Shown piece after piece: positions 4,501 through 57,467 of a stretch of 64,000 nucleotides of DNA. Numbering within the stretch: position 1 is the stretch's first letter; every line of letters begins with the position of its first letter. Source of the DNA: a virus; IMG/VR virus record IMGVR_UViG_3300029288_006769, positions 122,367 through 186,366 of that record. The stretch is one strand, 5' to 3'. The notes under the pieces were generated by a model that worked only from the letters and a program-made list of their open reading frames with translations, did not search any database and was not told the origin of the DNA. A program made the position numbers and the translations under genes.

Positions 4501-5008
4501 CCTCTCCAAAAGCTGACTTCATATAATTGATAAATTCAATAGCTTCTGCTTCTTTGTTTTCTAAAACAAGTTTGGGTATTCTTCCACCCATACAAGCTGA
4601 TGAAACAATTAAATTTTTATTGTATTGAACAAGATCTTCATAAAGGATAATTGGTTTGTAGTAGAATGTATTTCTCATAGCTTGACCAAGTAACCAGCAA
4701 AGATCTAAATATCCTTGATAATTTTTAGCAAGTAGGACTAAGTGATCACGCTCTCTTTTTTCTTCTTTGTCATCACTTTCAAATTCTTTTTTGAAAGCGC
4801 AATAAGCTTCAAGTCCAATAATAGATTTTATCCCAGCTTTATTAGCTACTTGATTGAAATAGAGAGAGGCGCATAGATTACCATGATCAGTTACACAAAT
4901 AGAGGGATAATTATTTTCTTTTGCCCATTTGACATATTCATCTACTCCGAGTAGAGCATCTCCATTTGAGAAGTCAGTATGTATATGCAGCGGTAAATAA
5001 TGATTCAT
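1547..5008 (-). CDS. dnaE: DNA polymerase III alpha subunit (DnaE-type, N-terminal PHP domain)
   Basis: 1153 aa; N-terminal PHP motif HLHIHTDFSNGDAL...VTDHGN; size and layout typical of DnaE. Confidence 0.9.
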   Translation of the reverse strand: MNHYLPLHIHTDFSNGDALLGVDEYVKWAKENNYPSICVTDHGNLCASLYFNQVANKAGIKSIIGLEAYCAFKKEFESDDKEEKRERDHLVLLAKNYQGYLDLCWLLGQAMRNTFYYKPIILYEDLVQYNKNLIVSSACMGGRIPKLVLENKEAEAIEFINYMKSAFGEDFYIEIMEIQMADQTAFNQWAINNHKRLGVKLIWTTDTHYLKPEHAEVHDVMKLINSKGSFQDDSWQKRVYKSRNLWLKKREDIIAEAQFLGYDLEFINQCLDRTLEIDSKIEKVKLTRAPEVIMPKFADNSYEILERKAFEALKEKGWDNRPDYVARVKSELETIKFKRMEDYFLIVADIVNYAETHDVLVGCGRGSGAGSLVVHLLGITKIDPIKYGLYFERFLNEKRLDPPDIDLDFDSKTRYKIEEYLKGKYGINSVSHVISFGTFGIKNAIRDTFRVYFGTEKKDSVDRLSKCLENDDDVFDDAIQKMIALEGDWAKNFIEEHKKQFDIARVLVGKNRHYSMHAGGVIIAPDNLERFIPIMRISDNIATGYPEGGDTRLMTDAGLMKFDILGLNACTIISDTLKLLQGKVKLQDIIDNDDDPKVLEQFNQARTFSIFQFEGKNITKFVKRAKPEKFVDLVAINALYRPAVIQAGGLEMYLKNKENYDYEKAKQDPFERVLADSYGMMLYQESSMRVFQELGGFTLSEADESRHVFKLLFKGKTDYTEFNHMMDKFRAGCHKNTNYDDKRIEEIMDTMKNFSKYSFNRSHSCAYAMMAYIMMYLRTYYPNEYFASLLSNTENTEAMQDGKKVNLFQNYVTEIQKSFNVKINKPDINDSGADMFRIKPDGSLCYAFGHIKDVGSKAATNIQENQPYTSFKDFLSRVTRRVVNKRVIKALIYSEAIKFDDTVELFKKEIGEEIDTTNFLQKQFEHTGLIVSKDLKEATNREYSLKGVEKAAAQGKTLSRNNAIPMIVFVSKFRRLAGIGKKTQKPYIMYFATIYDGTTRIDDCILNDAEDLKIEEGDLVSGKLYFEEAKNKKYSDHVFYLSDITKIKNTEGYDALSKFNLQTEKQPEITEQTEPKKPKLISRKMKGARQEILTELFKNDTPATLTETNAIRLELGEPIKMISRKKRVADSETVNEIVKESKPKLISRKQRSI

Positions 5009-45625: not shown

Positions 45626-46295
45626 TTAAAGTATTACATTTTTTCTCTCCTTTTTTGTTTTAGAAATTTTCTCCCTTACTTCTTTTCTCTTGGAAACATT
45701 GTTTTCACCACTTATTAAAATTTTTCTTTGTGGATTATTTTTCCAAAAATTTAAGACTGCTTTTGAAATATTTTGTTTTTGTTCTATTGTTCTTTTTCTT
45801 CCTCTTAAAATAAATTTAGGTTTGCCTTTTTGTTTTTTAGACGCATGCGACATTTTTTGTCTAGTAATTTCTGTCGGTTTTCTACCAGACATTGCAAGAC
45901 TCACTTTTTTCTTGCGCTGTTCTGTCCAAGGAGATTTTATAAAACAATCTTTTTTCCCATTCGCAGTATCTTCTTTATACTTACTTCTAATTTCTTCTCT
46001 TCGCGGATTATTTGAAAAACAATCGCCCCCATCACCACCTTTTGTTATATCCAACAGGTGCTCTTGAATTAAGAAACTCTATCCAATATTTTTCTCTTTC
46101 ATTTAGCTGATCTACTTGACATTCTTCTATAATATCTTTTCGAAAATTTTCTTGGCCATATTTTATTATTGCTTTTCGTATAAGTATACCTGATCCATAA
46201 TATTGAATATTATACTTTAATTCTTTCCCGATATAAATTTTGCCATTCAAAAGATTTGTAATTTTATAAATTACGCTTAAACTTGCCATAATCAT
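45626..46295 (-). pseudogene. GIY-YIG homing endonuclease split by a frameshift (catalytic part 46032-46295, NUMOD3-like part 45626-46054)
   Basis: VIYKITNLLNGKIYIGK...YYGSG...GYN ends at a stop; the overlapping frame continues ...KGGDGGD plus NUMOD3 repeats; the intact paralog at 17613-18392 reads GYNLTEGGEGGD across this point. Confidence 0.6.
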
Positions 46296-47311
46296 CTTTT
46301 TCTAAGTGTTCGTTCATAATCTTCAAAACGTATTTTTGCGATTTTTGAACGCTGTTCTGTTCGAACTACAACTCCTTCAGGTTTTCCCAATGCATCATTT
46401 TCAAGCAAAGCGTTTGACATGCCCGGGAGCAGATTTTTCAACCAATCATAAGTCCCTTGAATGGTTTGTGGTGGACATGCTCCAATAATAGAAGGCACTA
46501 TTAGACATCTTATATCTGCTGCTACACTTGCAATTGTTCTGACTCCAACAAAATTTTGTCCCCCATTATCTCTCCAAGCAGCTATTTTTTCTATGGGCAA
46601 ATCAAGTAAATCTTCAAACTCTTTTGCTTCCATCATTATGACATCAAACAACCTGAAACCAAGTTTCCCTGTTTTTGTATAATTTTTTGCCGTTCCTGCT
46701 TTACCCCCATAAACTTCCCCAAATAATACAAAAACAGATTGTTCAAGTTGGTCCCAGTAAATTCTTCTTGCATTGTCAGCCACAGTTTGAATTGTATCAA
46801 CAATATCTAATGTAGGATTATGAATCCAATCTCCAAAACCATAAAGAAGTTCTTCACGAGAACCAATTAGATATGTCCCTTTAGGAAACAAAATAATACG
46901 AGCATTTGTACCATCAATTTTCTCAGAAAGAAAAATTTCGTCATCTGCTGAAAAAGATACAAGAACTTCTTCTTTCAAAGAACCTCTATCCCCAAGAGCA
47001 TGATATGTAAGAATACTTGGGTATTTTGTAGCCGAATTGATTTTTTTCAAATCAAAAGCTCGCATATTCACACAATATTTACCATAATCAGGATTATGTT
47101 TCTTCATAATGTCGTATGTTGCCGGTCTTACTTTCCAGCCTACATTGTCGCAATTACCACAAGCTATACTCATGCTCATAGCAGCTACATCACCTGGCAT
47201 AATTTCTTCGCTATTACAATTAGAACAAGTCATTACTACAAATGCTGACGGTGGACAAATCTTACCCTCATGCTTTATACCACAAAAAATACAATGCTTA
47301 GCTTCACTCAT
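46292..47311 (-). CDS. ATP-dependent RNA ligase (Rnl2-like nucleotidyltransferase) with N-terminal zinc ribbon
   Basis: motif I KIDGTN, motif III FGEVYG, motif V EGVVVR; N-terminal CxxC...CxxC. Confidence 0.55.
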   Translation of the reverse strand: MSEAKHCIFCGIKHEGKICPPSAFVVMTCSNCNSEEIMPGDVAAMSMSIACGNCDNVGWKVRPATYDIMKKHNPDYGKYCVNMRAFDLKKINSATKYPSILTYHALGDRGSLKEEVLVSFSADDEIFLSEKIDGTNARIILFPKGTYLIGSREELLYGFGDWIHNPTLDIVDTIQTVADNARRIYWDQLEQSVFVLFGEVYGGKAGTAKNYTKTGKLGFRLFDVIMMEAKEFEDLLDLPIEKIAAWRDNGGQNFVGVRTIASVAADIRCLIVPSIIGACPPQTIQGTYDWLKNLLPGMSNALLENDALGKPEGVVVRTEQRSKIAKIRFEDYERTLRKR

Positions 47312-52386: not shown

Positions 52387-52431
52387 TCTTTGGGTTATGA
52401 GCCCAATATCTTGCCATTAGAAGACCCCGCA
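52360..52431 (-). tRNA. initiator-type tRNA-Met(CAU)
   Basis: anticodon arm TTGGG-CTCATAA-CCCAA (three G:C pairs before the loop); acceptor TGCGGGG/CCCCGCT with an unpaired 1:72; close to E. coli tRNA-fMet in the stem and loop. Confidence 0.65.
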
Positions 52432-53327
52432 AATTTCAAAGTATCTGACAATTTCAATAAGCACTTATCAATGTCTTTTTTTACTTCTGAAGCAGTAAAA
52501 CGTAACACTTCCCAACCATTTGATTTAGACCAGTTATCTCGCTTCTGATCTTTTTGTTTTACTACATCAAGTTCATGACTCTTTCCATCAATCTCTACAT
52601 CAACTTTTATATCAACAAAAGCAATGTCATATTCATAAATTCCAATTTGATATCTTGCTGTCCATCCAGATATATTATTTTTAATTAAAGCTTGTTTAAA
52701 TAATTCTTCGACATAAGAAAGTTTTGAACTGTGATATAAACGATAAGGTAATCTATCAGGGTGTTCGCTAAAAAACTTAATTGCATGTTTTGAAATTTTT
52801 TGTTTTGCTTGTTCTGACAAATGTACTTTCTTTTTACAATTTTTCAAAGCGATTCTAATAAGTTCGACACCAAATAACTTTCTAAGCTCTTCTTTTGATT
52901 CTCCAAGTTCCCATCTGTTTTTGATATTCTGTATAATATTTGGATAATTTTTGATTAAATATGCTGCACATTTTTTCTTGTGCTTTGAAAAATTCCCTTT
53001 ATTGAAATCTCTACCACAAACACACTGTACTTGCTCTCTAAATCCATAAAAACCTATTTTTGTCGATTTCTTTCTTTTGCAACTTGCATGAGAACATTTT
53101 TGACTTTCACTTATTGTTCTTTTTGGAGTGTTCCTTAGAGCATAAACTATAATTTTTTTAGAAATTAGTCCTTCTTGTCGAATTTCATTTATAGACATAC
53201 CAGAATTGTATTTTTTAACAATCTCATCATAACTATCAATTGACAAATTACATCTTGAATTATGTTGAGTACAACCTGATTTTGTATTGAAACTCCTATT
53301 ACATTTTTTGCAAAAATACATATTCAA
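52395..53327 (-). CDS. zinc-finger + DUF559/Vsr-like endonuclease domain protein (homing-endonuclease-like)
   Basis: N-terminal CKKCNRSF...H; C-terminal YEYDIAFVDIKVDVEIDGKSH...NGWEVLRF. Confidence 0.5.
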   Translation of the reverse strand: MNMYFCKKCNRSFNTKSGCTQHNSRCNLSIDSYDEIVKKYNSGMSINEIRQEGLISKKIIVYALRNTPKRTISESQKCSHASCKRKKSTKIGFYGFREQVQCVCGRDFNKGNFSKHKKKCAAYLIKNYPNIIQNIKNRWELGESKEELRKLFGVELIRIALKNCKKKVHLSEQAKQKISKHAIKFFSEHPDRLPYRLYHSSKLSYVEELFKQALIKNNISGWTARYQIGIYEYDIAFVDIKVDVEIDGKSHELDVVKQKDQKRDNWSKSNGWEVLRFTASEVKKDIDKCLLKLSDTLKFAGSSNGKILGS

Positions 53328-53659: not shown

Positions 53660-53898
53660 TTTTTACATTTCTGACATAAGTTATCAATATGATTTGTCAT
53701 TTGCACGCATTTTTCACAAAACTCAAGTTCCATTTCTTTAATCTCGAGCACCCAACGCCATGCATATCTACATGTGCAATCAATACAATATAACCCGTTA
53801 GGGTCATTTGGCCACACAGGGCACAACTTTGCGTCATCTTTTTCCTGAGCAACATCGCATTGCGCTATTGCTTGTTCTATTTGCTCTTTTGTTTTCAT
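53656..53898 (-). CDS. Cys-rich hypothetical protein
   Basis: ORF. Confidence 0.25.
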   Translation of the reverse strand: MKTKEQIEQAIAQCDVAQEKDDAKLCPVWPNDPNGLYCIDCTCRYAWRWVLEIKEMELEFCEKCVQMTNHIDNLCQKCKK

Positions 53899-54593
53899 TT
53901 TTTCACGCCAAAAACACTATAATTGCCAAATGTTGGACGTTTAAAATATACGGTCATATCGGGTTCTAAACCCGTTTTCCTTACATATATTTCAAATTTA
54001 CTGTCAAGCAAACTATGCAGCTCTTTTTCAGTATAATGCTTGACATGATATTTTACTATTTTATGATCAGGGTATCTTTCACCATTTGGAGTAGTAAAGC
54101 ACCAGATACCATTGGGCTTCAAAACTCTATAAACTTCGCTAATTACTTTTTCAACCTCTTCAACATGTTCAAATGTTTCTACCGAAACAACAGTATCAAA
54201 AAGACTGTCAATTTCAGGGATTTGCTTGATATCCCCTACATCATATTTTATATTTAAAGCATTGTAATGTTCTTTTGCAAAATCAATACTTTCTTTATCG
54301 ATGTCGTAACCATGTACTCTTAATGCTCTACTGGCAAGCATTTTTGTGCCCATGCCACAACCACAAGCAATATCGAGCACTAATTTGTTTTCAACTGCAA
54401 CTAGAAATTCACGATACATTAAATCATGGATGTCTATATTGCCCTGGCCAGCTTTACCTGCGTGTTCTGGGATTATTCGTTCGCCGGTATATTGCATTGT
54501 TCCCTCGGATCTATAACAATTCCACGTAGCGCATTTGCACAAATCGTACAAACTCCTGGAACAAGTGCAGAAGCTATACCTTGTTGATTGCAT
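53895..54593 (-). CDS. class I SAM-dependent methyltransferase
   Basis: motif I VLDIACGCGMG, LKPNGIWCFTTPN. Confidence 0.6.
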   Translation of the reverse strand: MQSTRYSFCTCSRSLYDLCKCATWNCYRSEGTMQYTGERIIPEHAGKAGQGNIDIHDLMYREFLVAVENKLVLDIACGCGMGTKMLASRALRVHGYDIDKESIDFAKEHYNALNIKYDVGDIKQIPEIDSLFDTVVSVETFEHVEEVEKVISEVYRVLKPNGIWCFTTPNGERYPDHKIVKYHVKHYTEKELHSLLDSKFEIYVRKTGLEPDMTVYFKRPTFGNYSVFGVKK

Positions 54594-54903: not shown

Positions 54904-55230
54904 TTATTCGTCTATGCTAGACTGTGTCGTAGTTAACATTAGTTTGCATATATCCTGTATTAAAAGTTCTTCTTTTTCTCTAGCCTTTTCATAATGCTCA
55001 TGTTTAAAACTATAAATCACTTGTGCCATTGCTATATGGAGCACTTCGTGTACAAGATAATCTTCTGGTTCTTTTTCGTCAGAATACCACGTATAAACTG
55101 TTGCTTTCTTTGTTTTTACGTTCTTGCAACAGTGACCCTTATATTGACTATCAGAATCATACTCGATTTTCCAATCAGATAAAATTCTGATCTTCTTTAC
55201 TATATTTGCTAATCTGTCTTCAGCTTTCAT
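54904..55230 (-). CDS. small HExxH zinc-metallopeptidase-like protein (SprT-like)
   Basis: HEVLHIAM motif. Confidence 0.35.
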   Translation of the reverse strand: MKAEDRLANIVKKIRILSDWKIEYDSDSQYKGHCCKNVKTKKATVYTWYSDEKEPEDYLVHEVLHIAMAQVIYSFKHEHYEKAREKEELLIQDICKLMLTTTQSSIDE

Positions 55231-55652
55231 TTCGTCAAGACCACTCTAACAACTTTATCAATTACGCCATTGGACACAAGTTTAAATTGCGGCATCCCCA
55301 TTTCTTCTGCAAAAGGGTTACTATAAAAATTCATAAAGGAATTCTCATTAAAGAAATGGCAATGCTCTATGCACTCAACAGCTGATTCACTATGCCAATA
55401 AGGCACTTCTATTAAAAACACGCCTTTATTTTCAAGTAAGTCATAGATATCTTTGATAATCTGTTTCAAAACTTTTGATGATTCGATATGTTCGAATACA
55501 TGGCTCGCTTCAATATAACTAAATTTTCCTTCCAATTTAGGGAGCCCGTCATTCAAGTCCCACACTACATCAGCCCATTTGGGAACTATATCGACTCTAA
55601 TTTTATCAGGTTCTGGTTTGCTATATGGTCCTTCACCCAACATTAAGCGCAT
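55227..55652 (-). CDS. methyltransferase-like protein
   Basis: C-terminal class I MTase-like segments (KGVFLIEVP). Confidence 0.3.
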   Translation of the reverse strand: MRLMLGEGPYSKPEPDKIRVDIVPKWADVVWDLNDGLPKLEGKFSYIEASHVFEHIESSKVLKQIIKDIYDLLENKGVFLIEVPYWHSESAVECIEHCHFFNENSFMNFYSNPFAEEMGMPQFKLVSNGVIDKVVRVVLTK

Positions 55653-57017: not shown

Positions 57018-57250
57018 TGCCCTTGGTGGGATTTGAACCCACATAACATTGATTAGAGTTCCTCTTTGGAAACGCGATTCCTGCCGCTGTTTACAAACCC
57101 TCCAAAGCTGTCGCCAGATCTTTGGCAGCGTATCAGTTCTGCCGCAACCATGGAACTCGCCTAAGAACAGTTTCCCGTTCGGTCAATGCCCTCCGTTAAG
57201 AGTCACGGTCCGTTTTTCCGAGTGCACTTTCCATTTTATGCTACAAGGGC
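57018..57250 (-). ncRNA. tRNA-like RNA with ~160-nt internal insert (intron-containing tRNA or tmRNA-like candidate)
   Basis: 5' GCCCTTG pairs with 3' CAAGGGC-A; canonical T-arm GTGGG-TTCAAAT-CCCAC; D-arm-like GCAT-AAAATGGAAA-GTGC; the rest does not fold as a normal cloverleaf. Confidence 0.4.
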
Positions 57251-57467
57251 CTAAAATTTAAAAATTGGTTGCATCTGAGTTATCAATGCTGTTTTTCTTT
57301 TTGACAGTTCTTGAGACTGTTGCCTGAACCAGTTCGGCTAACCCGGCACCCAATTGACATAAGCTCAGCCACAATCAACTGAGTGCCGGGTCTTGGATTT
57401 GAACCAAGATAAAAATGTAAGCACTAATTGTTAAAAGATACAACCAATTAATTTCAAAGATCAAATT

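What the first reader, a model, noticed from the sequence alone, without database searches (positions are those of the whole stretch)
57018..57250. tRNA-like element with a ~160-nt internal insertion
A perfect 7-bp acceptor (GCCCTTG / CAAGGGC-A) and a canonical T-arm (GTGGG-TTCAAAT-CCCAC) sit 233 nt apart, and a D-arm-like hairpin follows the 5' acceptor strand. An anticodon arm ATTGA-CCGA|TAA-TCAAT, giving an Ile GAU anticodon, can only be assembled by joining nt ~72 and ~196 of the element, and an extra 35 nt still lies between the D-arm and that stem. Group I introns normally need a U at the 5' splice site and are longer. Alternatively, a TGGAAA/TTTCCA long-range pairing resembles the tmRNA P2 helix, and an Ala-Ala-starting mini-ORF (AAKDLATALEGL-stop) lies in the middle.
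Basis: seen in the sequence. Interest (0 to 1): 0.75.

Follow-up and report, generated by a model that had tools for sequence, protein, structure and literature searches.

The report
tRNA-shaped phage RNA with giant arm
A 233-base gene in a huge phage's tRNA cluster makes a tRNA-shaped RNA whose small variable arm is replaced by a large, conserved, folded domain. It belongs to a small, apparently undescribed RNA family and is neither an intron-split tRNA nor a tmRNA.

Summary
On the minus strand (57250→57018) a 7-bp acceptor stem, a D arm and a T arm enclose about 160 extra bases, inside a 25-gene phage tRNA array.

Homologues in eight other distinct metagenomic phage contigs share a conserved core (ACUGAUACGCUGCC … GGAGGGUUUGUAAACAGCGGCAGGAA). 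They show compensatory changes in every helix. They do not give a common anticodon on any splicing scheme. They break the Ala-Ala mini-ORF and lack G3:U70.

The architecture is a tRNA L-shape with three changes:
- a stem with a 7–12-nt AAAC loop sits in the anticodon-arm position;
- a giant three-way-junction arm (P-a, P-v, P-b and the core) sits in the variable-arm position;
- the loop probably kisses the core.

Two acceptor types occur, GCCC…A/U73 and tRNA-His-like G-1/C73. Related phages with the same tRNA order lack the element, so it is accessory.

No Rfam family, cultured-phage record, GTDB genome or paper matched.

Best reading: a stable, tRNA-scaffolded structured non-coding RNA, matured like a tRNA and acting as a non-decoding tRNA mimic. 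Its target is unknown.

A second unusual family lies next to it: circularly permuted, acceptor-capped tRNA-like RNAs whose anticodon differs between most copies.

The parts
57018..57250 (-). Whole B-type tRNA-like RNA gene. In element numbering, nt 1 = window 57250 and nt 233 = window 57018.
   Evidence: Homologues.
57244..57250 (-). 5' acceptor strand GCCCUUG (nt 1-7). It pairs with nt 226-232.
   Evidence: 7/7 pairs in every copy; 6 of the 7 positions covary.
57224..57241 (-). D arm GCAU-AAAAUGGAAA-GUGC (nt 10-27), with A14 and G18 G19.
   Evidence: The 15-48 Levitt pair is A-U in most copies and G-C in L017.
57204..57222 (-). X arm in the anticodon-arm position: CUCGG-AAAAACGGA-CCGUG (nt 29-47). 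The 9-nt loop has an invariant AAAC and no U33.
   Evidence: the stem covaries (CCAG/CUGG, UCAU/AUGG, CCGU/ACGG, CCCGA/UUGGG). L027 has CCAU/AUGG.
57191..57203 (-). Linker L1, ACUCUUAACGGAG (nt 48-60), between the X arm and the giant arm.
   Evidence: It looks like an anticodon loop in some copies but not in L027 (UACCGUAAAAGG).
57183..57190 (-). P-a 5' strand GGCAUUGA (nt 61-68), the base of the giant arm in the variable-arm position.
   Evidence: every cell with letters is paired, and 6 of 8 positions show more than one pair type.
57159..57182 (-). Variable side branch V1 / P-v (nt 69-92). It includes the hairpin GAACGG-GAAA-CUGUUC (nt 71-86).
   Evidence: The hairpin is deleted in L008 and L021. 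It is replaced by larger branched inserts whose basal stem covaries in L017, L019 and L027.
57056..57158 (-). Conserved core closed by helix P-b (nt 93-99 with 189-195). It contains ACUGAUAC, GCUG/CAGC, a GNRA hairpin (nt 126-149), the 12-nt loop AGGGUUUGUAAA and GGCAGGAA.
   Evidence: Alignment A3 and pair counts: 95% of cells paired, 11 of 20 pairs with changes on both sides, 0/500 shuffles as good. Model R1 scores 116.5 bits here.
57070..57074 (-). CGUUU (nt 177-181), the proposed kissing partner of the X-loop AAACG (nt 36-40, window 57211-57215).
   Evidence: The His-like clade has ACAGGA:UCCUGU at the same places. Per-clade chance is about 0.03-0.06 and about 0.004.
57045..57055 (-). 3-nt bulge UAA (nt 196-198) plus P-a 3' strand UCAAUGUU (nt 199-206).
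   Evidence: A 3-nt bulge sits here in the window, L008, L021, L015, L017, L019 and L011 (UAA, GCA, ACG, UAU, UAA); it is absent in L016 and not 3 nt in L027.
57018..57044 (-). AU (positions 47/48), T arm GUGGG-UUCAAAU-CCCAC, 3' acceptor strand CAAGGGC and discriminator A73. No CCA is encoded.
57263..57449 (-). Neighbouring A-type RNA: a circularly permuted, acceptor-capped tRNA-like RNA with a long terminal stem. It is not part of B but co-occurs with it.
   Evidence: (fold z = -7.3).

Best explanation
The locus encodes a stable, non-decoding, tRNA-scaffolded structured RNA. It belongs to a small family found in the tRNA arrays of huge phages.

**Shown.** The acceptor stem, D arm, T arm and the 15-48 tertiary pair are kept, so the RNA should fold into a tRNA-like L. 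The anticodon-arm position holds a covarying stem whose enlarged loop carries an invariant AAAC. The variable-arm position holds a giant arm. This arm is a three-way junction (P-a, variable branch P-v, P-b) closing a roughly 90-nt core with about 40 invariant bases and a GNRA hairpin.

**Supported by one clade-level compensatory switch.** The loop of the anticodon-position arm pairs with a segment of the core. This would lock the molecule into a closed shape and hide the 'anticodon'.

**Inferred.**
- The RNA is cut out of the array transcript by the ordinary tRNA-processing enzymes (RNase P, 3' trimming, CCA addition), and the tRNA shell gives it stability.
- It is not spliced.
- It acts as a tRNA mimic that presents either the conserved core or a free acceptor end to a tRNA-recognising partner. 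Candidate partners are a host tRNA-targeting defence enzyme, a synthetase or modification enzyme, or the ribosome.
- One of the two acceptor types is tRNA-His-like (G-1/C73), a type charged largely independently of the anticodon; the GCCC acceptor of the other resembles these phages' tRNA-Leu acceptors, but its D arm does not. Aminoacylation is therefore possible but unproven.
For: - **Family.** Homologues are L008, L021, L015, L016, L017, L019, L011 (=L023) and L027/L028. Core model R1 scores 106-117 bits with one copy per locus.
- **Core covariation.** 95% of cells are paired, 11 of 20 pairs change on both sides, and 0/500 shuffles do as well; slid controls pair 34-50%.
- **Other helices.** The acceptor, D, T, X and P-a helices all covary, and the Levitt pair switches between A-U and G-C.
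- **Kissing pair.** AAACG:CGUUU in one clade becomes ACAGGA:UCCUGU in the other.
- **RNA strand.** The G·U pairs in P-a work only on the tRNA strand.
- **Context.** Every copy lies inside a tRNA array in the tRNA orientation.
- **Accessory status.** L026 and L031 keep tRNA-Phe directly followed by the next standard tRNA, and L026, L029 and L031 have no copy in the fetched loci (about +/-10 kb around the query gene).
- **Not spliced.** No consistent product results from brute-force deletion or from ARAGORN's intron mode.
- **Not known.** Rfam 15 gives no hit at E<=10.
- **His-like acceptor.** L011 and L016 have G-1 and C73 and a D arm like the phage tRNA-His genes.
Against: - There is no expression, processing or end-mapping data of any kind.
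- Only about seven independent sequences exist, and the roughly 40 invariant core bases give no covariation. The GCUG/CAGC versus CUGCC/GGCAG alternatives are therefore unresolved.
- The kissing interaction rests on essentially one evolutionary switch between two clades.
- In L021 the X stem is weakened to 2-3 pairs.
- The discriminator base is not uniform in the GCCC clade (U73 in L015), which argues against a single strict aminoacylation identity.
- No partner protein or conserved neighbouring gene was found.
Confidence: 0.6

Rival explanations
1. Intron-containing tRNA gene. The roughly 150-nt domain would be a self-splicing or protein-spliced intron. The reader placed it in the anticodon loop; it could alternatively sit in the variable region. 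Its removal would yield a working tRNA.
For: - The two ends form a perfect tRNA shell.
- A closely related core sits in two different acceptor/D/T shells, as a mobile intron would.
- HNH, GIY-YIG and LAGLIDADG homing-endonuclease genes and an RNA ligase are scattered through these arrays.
- ARAGORN's intron mode makes a call in 6 of 8 copies.
Against: - Those calls disagree on isotype (Gly, Gly, Pyl, Glu, Arg, Leu).
- No splice choice gives a 7-nt loop with U33/R37 across the copies.
- Removing only the giant arm leaves an 'anticodon' loop of 7-12 nt with a conserved AAAC and no U33.
- That loop co-varies with the putative intron, so the two are one functional unit.
- There is no U·G pair at any candidate 5' splice site and no group I or II model hit.
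- The domain is only about 117 nt in L015.
- Arrays lacking the element (L026, L031) carry at least the same standard tRNAs around this position as those that have it.
Confidence: 0.08
2. Miniature phage tmRNA-like ribosome-rescue RNA. The tRNA-like ends would enter the A site and the internal Ala-Ala frame would serve as a tag.
For: - The layout is a tRNA-like domain split by a large internal domain.
- GCU GCC opens a 12-codon frame ending in UAA in the window, and the frame survives in L011.
- A weak local tmRNA hit covers the T arm.
- His-like and possibly Leu-like acceptors would allow anticodon-independent charging.
Against: - The frame has UGA at codon 3 in L015 and is shifted in L017.
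- Its middle varies by hairpin covariation, not at the peptide level.
- G3:U70 is absent in all copies.
- A full D stem and an anticodon-position arm are present.
- ARAGORN and the Rfam tmRNA models do not detect it.
Confidence: 0.04
3. A catalytic or self-assembling 'ornate' RNA that merely uses the tRNA shell. Two versions are possible. It could be a new small ribozyme acting on its own or other tRNA-like ends. Or it could be a unit that oligomerises head-to-tail through the loop-core complementarity, as described for ROOL and GOLLD RNAs.
For: - About 40 invariant bases sit in internal loops next to freely covarying helices, which is typical of active sites or tertiary contacts.
- The core has a GNRA loop and a tetraloop-receptor-like internal loop next to P-b (reading of alignment A3).
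- The loop-core complementarity could equally form between molecules.
- The conserved GUUUGUAAAC is self-complementary.
- Per PMC12286853, found, large ornate RNAs form homo-oligomeric RNA-only complexes.
Against: - No known ribozyme model matches.
- Nothing indicates a cleavage site.
- Intramolecular and intermolecular pairing cannot be told apart from sequence.
Confidence: 0.15
4. Decaying pseudogene or recombination scar: two tRNA remnants, or a tRNA disrupted by junk DNA, with no function.
For: - tRNA fragments do exist in this array, such as the 3' half of tRNA-Leu(GAG) at 61074-61124.
- The element is absent from some related phages.
- L021 has a weakened X stem.
Against: - The core is conserved at 26/26 and 14/14 bases across phages whose flanking genes are unrelated.
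- Compensatory changes occur in every helix.
- The acceptor pairs perfectly in all copies.
Confidence: 0.02

Closest known systems
tmRNA (SsrA)
   Same: - The 5' and 3' ends form a tRNA-like acceptor/T-arm domain, with a large structured domain between them.
- It is found in some large phages.
- Its charging would have to be anticodon-independent.
   Different: - There is no G3:U70, no conserved tag frame or resume codon, and no pseudoknot ring.
- This RNA has a true D stem and an arm in the anticodon position.
- The extra domain emerges at the variable-arm position.
- It is not detected by ARAGORN or the Rfam tmRNA models.
Class II tRNAs (Leu, Ser, Tyr, Sec) with long variable arms
   Same: - The extra helix leaves the core exactly where a class II variable arm does, 2 nt before the T stem, with nt 48 pairing to nt 15.
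- The GCCC...A73 acceptor resembles the phage's own tRNA-Leu acceptors.
   Different: - The arm is 130-210 nt with a conserved core, instead of 13-21 nt.
- The linker at positions 44/45 is 12-19 nt.
- The anticodon loop is 7-12 nt, lacks U33, and is not a usable anticodon loop.
Group I intron-containing bacterial tRNA genes (Leu-UAA, fMet, Ile, Arg, and Asn/Asp in Patescibacteria; PMC13011429)
   Same: A tRNA gene missed by annotation tools because a structured RNA of one to a few hundred nt lies between its halves.
   Different: - Those introns sit in the anticodon loop, have the P3-P9 core, a U·G pair at the 5' splice site and a terminal G, and splice to a canonical tRNA.
- None of these features is present here.
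YrlA / bacterial Y RNAs and other tRNA mimics
   Same: - A non-coding RNA built around a tRNA-like elbow.
- It is phage-associated in some cases.
- It is presumably recognised by tRNA-binding proteins.
   Different: - In YrlA the tRNA-like module is internal and its acceptor is capped.
- Here the acceptor is open and terminal.
- Rfam YrlA does not hit B. The neighbouring A-type RNA is the one that resembles YrlA in layout.
T-box riboswitch-tRNA complex, and engineered tRNA scaffolds for RNA expression
   Same: - An RNA domain pairs with the anticodon-position loop of a tRNA-shaped module.
- A structured RNA is embedded in a tRNA shell that would give processing and stability.
   Different: - Here both partners are in one molecule.
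- No T-box sequence or UGGN-NCCA pairing is conserved; this was checked by eye against the discriminator bases.
- The engineered scaffolds are artificial and insert in the anticodon stem.

Membership tests
Canonical tRNA (Rfam RF00005 / ARAGORN) | Cloverleaf with acceptor, D and T arms and the elbow tertiary bases. | tested here: met
   all three helices are present and covary. U8, A14, G18, G19 and the 15-48 pair are present.
Canonical tRNA (Rfam RF00005 / ARAGORN) | 5-bp anticodon stem with a 7-nt loop, U33, a purine at 37 and a usable anticodon. | tested here: not met
   the loop in that position is 7-12 nt (AAAAACGGA in the window), without U33. It is not called by ARAGORN or by RF00005.
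Intron-containing tRNA (group I) | Exons that join to give a canonical tRNA with the same anticodon in homologues. | tested here: not met
   ARAGORN's intron mode gives Gly, Gly, Pyl, Glu, Arg and Leu in six copies and none in two. Brute-force deletions give no shared isotype.
Intron-containing tRNA (group I) | Group I catalytic core (P3-P9), a U·G pair at the 5' splice site and a terminal G. | tested here: not met
   No RF00028 hit at E<=10 on the window, L017 or L011. No conserved U·G in the X stem. The domain is only about 117 nt in L015.
Intron-containing tRNA (group I) | Self-splicing activity. | not testable with these tools
Archaeal/eukaryal-type tRNA intron | Bulge-helix-bulge motif (3-nt bulges separated by 4 bp) at the exon-intron junctions. 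| tested here: not met
   A 3-nt bulge sits on the 3' strand between P-b and P-a in the window, L008, L021, L015, L017, L019 and L011. The opposite strand carries a 12-90-nt branch, and P-a is 6-8 bp.
tmRNA | G3:U70 alanine identity pair in the acceptor stem. | tested here: not met
   position 3-70 is C-G or G-C in all copies.
tmRNA | Conserved tag reading frame with a resume codon and a stop codon. | tested here: not met
   UGA is the third codon in L015, and the frame is shifted in L017.
tmRNA | Detection by ARAGORN or the Rfam tmRNA covariance models. | tested here: not met
   only a 17-nt T-arm local hit, at 14 bits against a gathering score of 47.
YrlA (Y RNA-like) | Terminal Ro-binding stem with an internal tRNA-like module whose acceptor is capped. 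| tested here: not met
   B has an open terminal acceptor. No YrlA hit on B. The 23.8-bit hit in L011 joins B's T arm to the next tRNA's D arm.
Known self-cleaving ribozymes and riboswitches (Rfam 15) | A match to any curated covariance model. | tested here: not met
   none at E<=10.
B-type tRNA-like RNA (family defined here) | tRNA shell, plus an AAAC-loop arm in the anticodon position, plus a P-a/P-v/P-b three-way junction, plus a core with ACUGAUACGCUGCC and GGAGGGUUUGUAAACAGCGGCAGGAA. | tested here: met
   The window copy scores 116.5 bits with R1.

The most novel reading that the evidence does not exclude
B-type RNAs are a new functional class of chargeable tRNA mimic in huge phages. Host enzymes would mature them and HisRS, or possibly LeuRS, would aminoacylate them without any anticodon. 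The locked anticodon arm and conserved core would then direct them to something other than normal decoding. That could be the ribosome, giving a tag-less tmRNA-like or translation-reprogramming role. It could instead be a tRNA-targeting host defence enzyme, which they would decoy or inhibit. The adjacent permuted, capped A-type tRNA-like RNAs, whose anticodon differs between most copies, may work alongside them.
Probability: 0.15. Interest if true: 0.9.

Novelty: new variant of a known kind. Interest (0 to 1): 0.68.

Why it matters
tRNA-shaped RNAs that do not decode are rare. The known examples are tmRNA, Y-RNA-like RNAs and viral tRNA-like structures, and each revealed a distinct biology.

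This family keeps an intact tRNA shell, hides the anticodon position, and adds a roughly 90-nt core with about 40 invariant bases. It occurs only in the tRNA arrays of huge phages. It is absent from Rfam 15, from 50,697 phage records and from 185,579 reference genomes.

If expressed as predicted, it is a natural example of a structured RNA carried in a tRNA scaffold. It is also a candidate player in the contest between phages and host systems that attack or use tRNAs.

There is a practical point too. Such genes, and the permuted A-type genes beside them, are invisible to tRNA finders and could be mis-annotated as intron-bearing tRNAs or as small ORFs.

Tried and rejected
**Searches that found nothing**
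- BLAST of the region and of the element alone against the phage collection returned only generic tRNA or T-arm hits.
- tblastn of a 928-aa window protein against the phage collection found nothing.
- The search for related loci with the 231-aa neighbour found no relatives in IMG/VR.
- A 25-mer from the GAAA hairpin gave 0 hits. That hairpin later proved dispensable.
- The 18-mer GTTCCATGGTTGCGGCAG gave 0 hits.
- Two-block and single-block scans of IMG/VR found only L011 plus the coding chance hits L012 and L013.
- Scans of the GTDB genomes gave 0 hits, then two coding chance hits in Lachnospiraceae MAGs.
- The metagenome hits L014, L018, L020 and L022 are chance hits in coding DNA.
- Rfam at its gathering scores and at E<=10 found nothing on the window, L017 or L011, nor on the A element.
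- Four topic searches of the literature and one search for the conserved sequence strings found no description.
- Pfam on the neighbours in L017, L011, L019 and L021 showed no shared neighbouring gene, only scattered homing endonucleases.

**Ideas considered and dropped**
- The 24-nt T-arm plus acceptor string matches ordinary tRNA-Leu(UAA) and tRNA-Thr(UGU) genes in other phages. It therefore does not fix the isotype.
- Similarity of nt 28-48 to the neighbouring tRNA-Leu(CAA) (ACUCGGA, GGACCGUGA) is judged to be chance.
- I considered the linker L1 as a displaced anticodon loop (CUGUAAA, CUCUAAA). L027 has UACCGUAAAAGG, so the idea fails.
- T-box-like or RNase-P-like UGGN/GGU pairing with the NCCA end does not covary with the discriminator base.
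- Pairing between the A-type anticodon and B is ruled out: B is nearly identical in the window, L008 and L021, while the A anticodon differs among them.
- Hammerhead and twister resemblances fail on the catalytic bases.
- A MITE-style insertion with terminal inverted repeats is rejected, because the 'repeats' covary as an RNA helix that includes G·U pairs.
Full report
**1. What is at the coordinates**

The window is a low-GC (about 34%) segment of a large phage genome. It encodes a DnaE-type polymerase, NAD synthase, an AAA ATPase, an RNA ligase and several HNH or DUF559 endonucleases. It carries 25 tRNA genes, all on the minus strand, between 43.0 and 62.2 kb.

The finding lies on that same strand. 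Read 57250→57018, it is a 233-nt unit with these tRNA parts:
- acceptor GCCCUUG / CAAGGGC-A;
- U8 A9;
- D arm GCAU-AAAAUGGAAA-GUGC;
- T arm GUGGG-UUCAAAU-CCCAC.

ARAGORN and the Rfam tRNA model skip it. A permissive Rfam scan returns only the T arm. A scan for T-arm motifs shows it is one of four 'orphan' T arms in the array.

**2. Finding relatives**

The contig is in ENA and Logan (L006, identical). Near relatives at about 88% nucleotide identity (L008, L010) keep the element and the gene order. They already show that the GAAA hairpin (nt 71-86) can be deleted while nt 89-183 stay identical.

An 18-mer from that block hit one IMG/VR contig (L011). There the same core sits inside a different tRNA shell. 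One metagenome scan with AGGGTTTGTAAACAGCGG then gave L015, L016, L017 (from a 441-kb contig), L019 and L021. A protein-neighbour walk from L017 added L027 and L028.

Cultured-phage records, GTDB genomes, Rfam 15 and the literature gave nothing.

**3. Anatomy from comparison**

All copies share this plan:
- acceptor stem (7 bp), D arm, and one nucleotide at position 26;
- the 'X' arm, a 4-5-bp covarying stem with a 7-12-nt loop containing an invariant AAAC;
- a 12-19-nt linker;
- helix P-a (6-8 bp);
- a variable branch, P-v, ranging from a 12-nt stub to a roughly 90-nt branched insert;
- helix P-b (5-8 bp);
- a roughly 90-nt core;
- the P-b 3' strand, a short bulge (3 nt in most copies), and the P-a 3' strand;
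- two nucleotides, then the T arm, the acceptor 3' strand and the discriminator base.

The second of those two nucleotides pairs with D-loop position 15 like a Levitt pair. It is A-U in most copies and G-C in L017. P-a therefore leaves the body exactly where a class II variable arm does, and X sits where the anticodon arm does.

The core reads: (A/U/C)GG(U/C)UUG-NGGNA(A)GA(A/C)(A)CUGAUAC-GCUG-CC[covarying stem, AU bulge, GNRA loop]GG-AGGGUUUGUAAA-CAGC-GGCAGGAA-… . Fourteen and 26 consecutive bases are identical in all copies.

On the core alignment, 95% of cells are paired and 11 of 20 pairs change on both sides. None of 500 shuffles does as well, and sliding the partners drops pairing to 34-50%. 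My manual tables show covariation in the acceptor, D, T, X and P-a helices as well. P-a includes G·U pairs that are valid only on this strand.

A covariance model of the core finds exactly one copy per locus, at 106-117 bits.

**4. A probable tertiary lock**

In the GCCC-type copies the X loop (AAAACG) is complementary to the segment that follows GGCAGGAA (CGUUUU). In the His-like copies the two sites read ACAGGA and UCCUGU. The complementary runs are 5-6 bases long. Their chance probabilities are about 0.03-0.06 and about 0.004, and the loops do not fit the other clade's partner.

This is a single clade-level switch, so I rate the interaction as probable, not proven. It could also form between molecules.

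The invariant bases leave two things unresolved. First, GCUG/CAGC plus CC/GG and CUGCC/GGCAG are alternative pairings. Second, a short GG/CC helix with a tetraloop-receptor-like internal loop may sit next to P-b.

**5.

*Splicing.* The proposed anticodon (GAU, from CCGA|UAA) exists only in the window lineage. Other copies give unrelated 'loops' without U33. ARAGORN's intron mode gives six calls of five different isotypes and two failures. Exhaustive single deletions give no shared product. The most frequent calls in most copies simply treat X as an anticodon arm with a non-canonical loop.

There is no conserved U·G pair, no terminal G logic and no group I or II model hit. The domain is as small as about 117 nt.

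Related phages keep the same local order of tRNAs. In L026 and L031, tRNA-Phe is followed directly by Leu(CAG) or Ile(GAU) with no copy between them, and no copy occurs anywhere in the fetched L026, L029 or L031 loci. The element is therefore accessory and not the only gene for some isoacceptor.

*tmRNA.* The mini-ORF is broken in L015 and L017. Its middle varies by RNA covariation. G3:U70 is absent, and a D stem is present.

*TGGAAA/TTTCCA pairing.* Two uncompensated changes in L008 break it.

**6. Two shells**

Most copies have a GCCC(U/C)… acceptor with A73 (U73 in L015). L011 and L016 have G-1, GUGG…, C73 and a D arm like the tRNA-His genes of these phages. From textbook knowledge, HisRS identity rests mainly on G-1:C73, and LeuRS, SerRS and AlaRS ignore the anticodon. 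A molecule without an anticodon could therefore still be charged if it kept such an acceptor. This is suggestive only. A relative's array region also encodes Thg1 and a CCA-adding enzyme.

**7. Mechanism I commit to**

This is a tRNA-scaffolded structured non-coding RNA. It would be released from the array transcript by RNase P and 3' processing and stabilised by the tRNA shell. It is not spliced. It acts as a non-decoding tRNA mimic whose conserved core, or free acceptor end, engages a partner that recognises tRNAs.

The architecture and its conservation are shown. The processing, the stability, the mimicry and the target are inferred.

I give about 0.6 to 'stable, unspliced, structured tRNA-like RNA'. 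Within that, decoy, ribosome-directed, catalytic and oligomeric roles cannot yet be ranked with confidence.

**8. The neighbour**

Immediately upstream (57449→57263) lies a second unannotated RNA. Its parts, in order, are:
- the 5' strand of a long terminal stem;
- a T arm;
- the 3' acceptor strand;
- a capping loop;
- the 5' acceptor strand;
- a D arm;
- a canonical anticodon arm;
- the 3' strand of the terminal stem.

It is, in other words, a circularly permuted, acceptor-capped tRNA (fold z = -7.3). Compensatory changes support the cap helix, the terminal stem and the anticodon stem.

Two further copies sit next to the B-type RNA of the distant locus L019. The anticodon differs between most copies: CAA, UGA, CAU and AUG. 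U33 and R37 are kept, and the cap length varies from 3 to about 35 nt.

This deserves its own study. It may be a two-piece tRNA once the cap is removed, a decoy for anticodon nucleases, or a Y-RNA-like module.

**9. Verdict**

The element is real and conserved and is not explained by any curated family.

I file it as a new variant within the broad kind 'tRNA-like non-decoding RNAs'. Interest is moderately high, limited by the small number of sequences and the complete lack of expression or functional data.

Noticed in passing
window 57263-57449 (minus strand); also L008 ~1700-1890, L010 ~815-1012, L021 ~4613-4810, L019 ~305-470 and ~485-690: A family of circularly permuted, acceptor-capped tRNA-like RNAs sits next to the B-type RNA in two distant phage lineages. 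The gene order is terminal stem, T arm, capped acceptor hairpin, D arm, then a canonical anticodon arm. The stems covary, and the window copy folds with z = -7.3. The anticodon differs between most copies (CAA, UGA, CAU, AUG), and the cap length varies from 3 to about 35 nt. ARAGORN and Rfam both miss it.
   Followed up: partly
window 61074-61124 (minus strand): A partial duplicate of tRNA-Leu(GAG) (variable arm, T arm and 3' acceptor strand) lies directly downstream of the intact tRNA-Leu(GAG) gene (61131-61215). It may be a recombination or homing scar.
   Followed up: partly
window 61480-62085, 59768-60526, 52395-53327 (minus strand); L017 12956-13570; L019 913-1731; L026 14548-15384; L027 8393-9112: Free-standing homing-endonuclease-type genes are interspersed among the tRNA genes of all these arrays. 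They include HNH, DUF559/Vsr-like, GIY-YIG and (faintly) LAGLIDADG types.
   Followed up: partly
window 46292-47311 (minus strand): An RNA ligase gene (Pfam RNA_ligase, PHROG 548) lies inside the tRNA-rich region, together with methyltransferase genes at 53895-54593 and 55227-55652.
   Followed up: no
L017 12721-12800 (+): Another tRNA-shaped gene that ARAGORN misses. It has acceptor GGGCUGG/CCAGCCC-A and T arm GUAGG-UUCAAUU-CCUAC, with a CUGAUAA (GAU-like) loop but an irregular D and variable region. It sits where the relatives L027 and L026 have tRNA-Ile(GAU).
   Followed up: no
L026 15365-16744 and 16948-17661; L027 6960-8261; L029 14847-16181 and 12450-13745: Related huge-phage arrays encode a CCA-adding enzyme. 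L026 also encodes a Thg1-family tRNA-His guanylyltransferase. L029 carries a TnpB (OrfB_IS605) gene inside the array region.
   Followed up: no
L027 3200-3330 and 3630-3860 (+): The spacers flanking the B-type RNA in L027 are GC-rich and look structured. One includes an orphan T-arm-like CCGGG-UUCGAAC-CCCGG. They may hold further unannotated RNAs.
   Followed up: no
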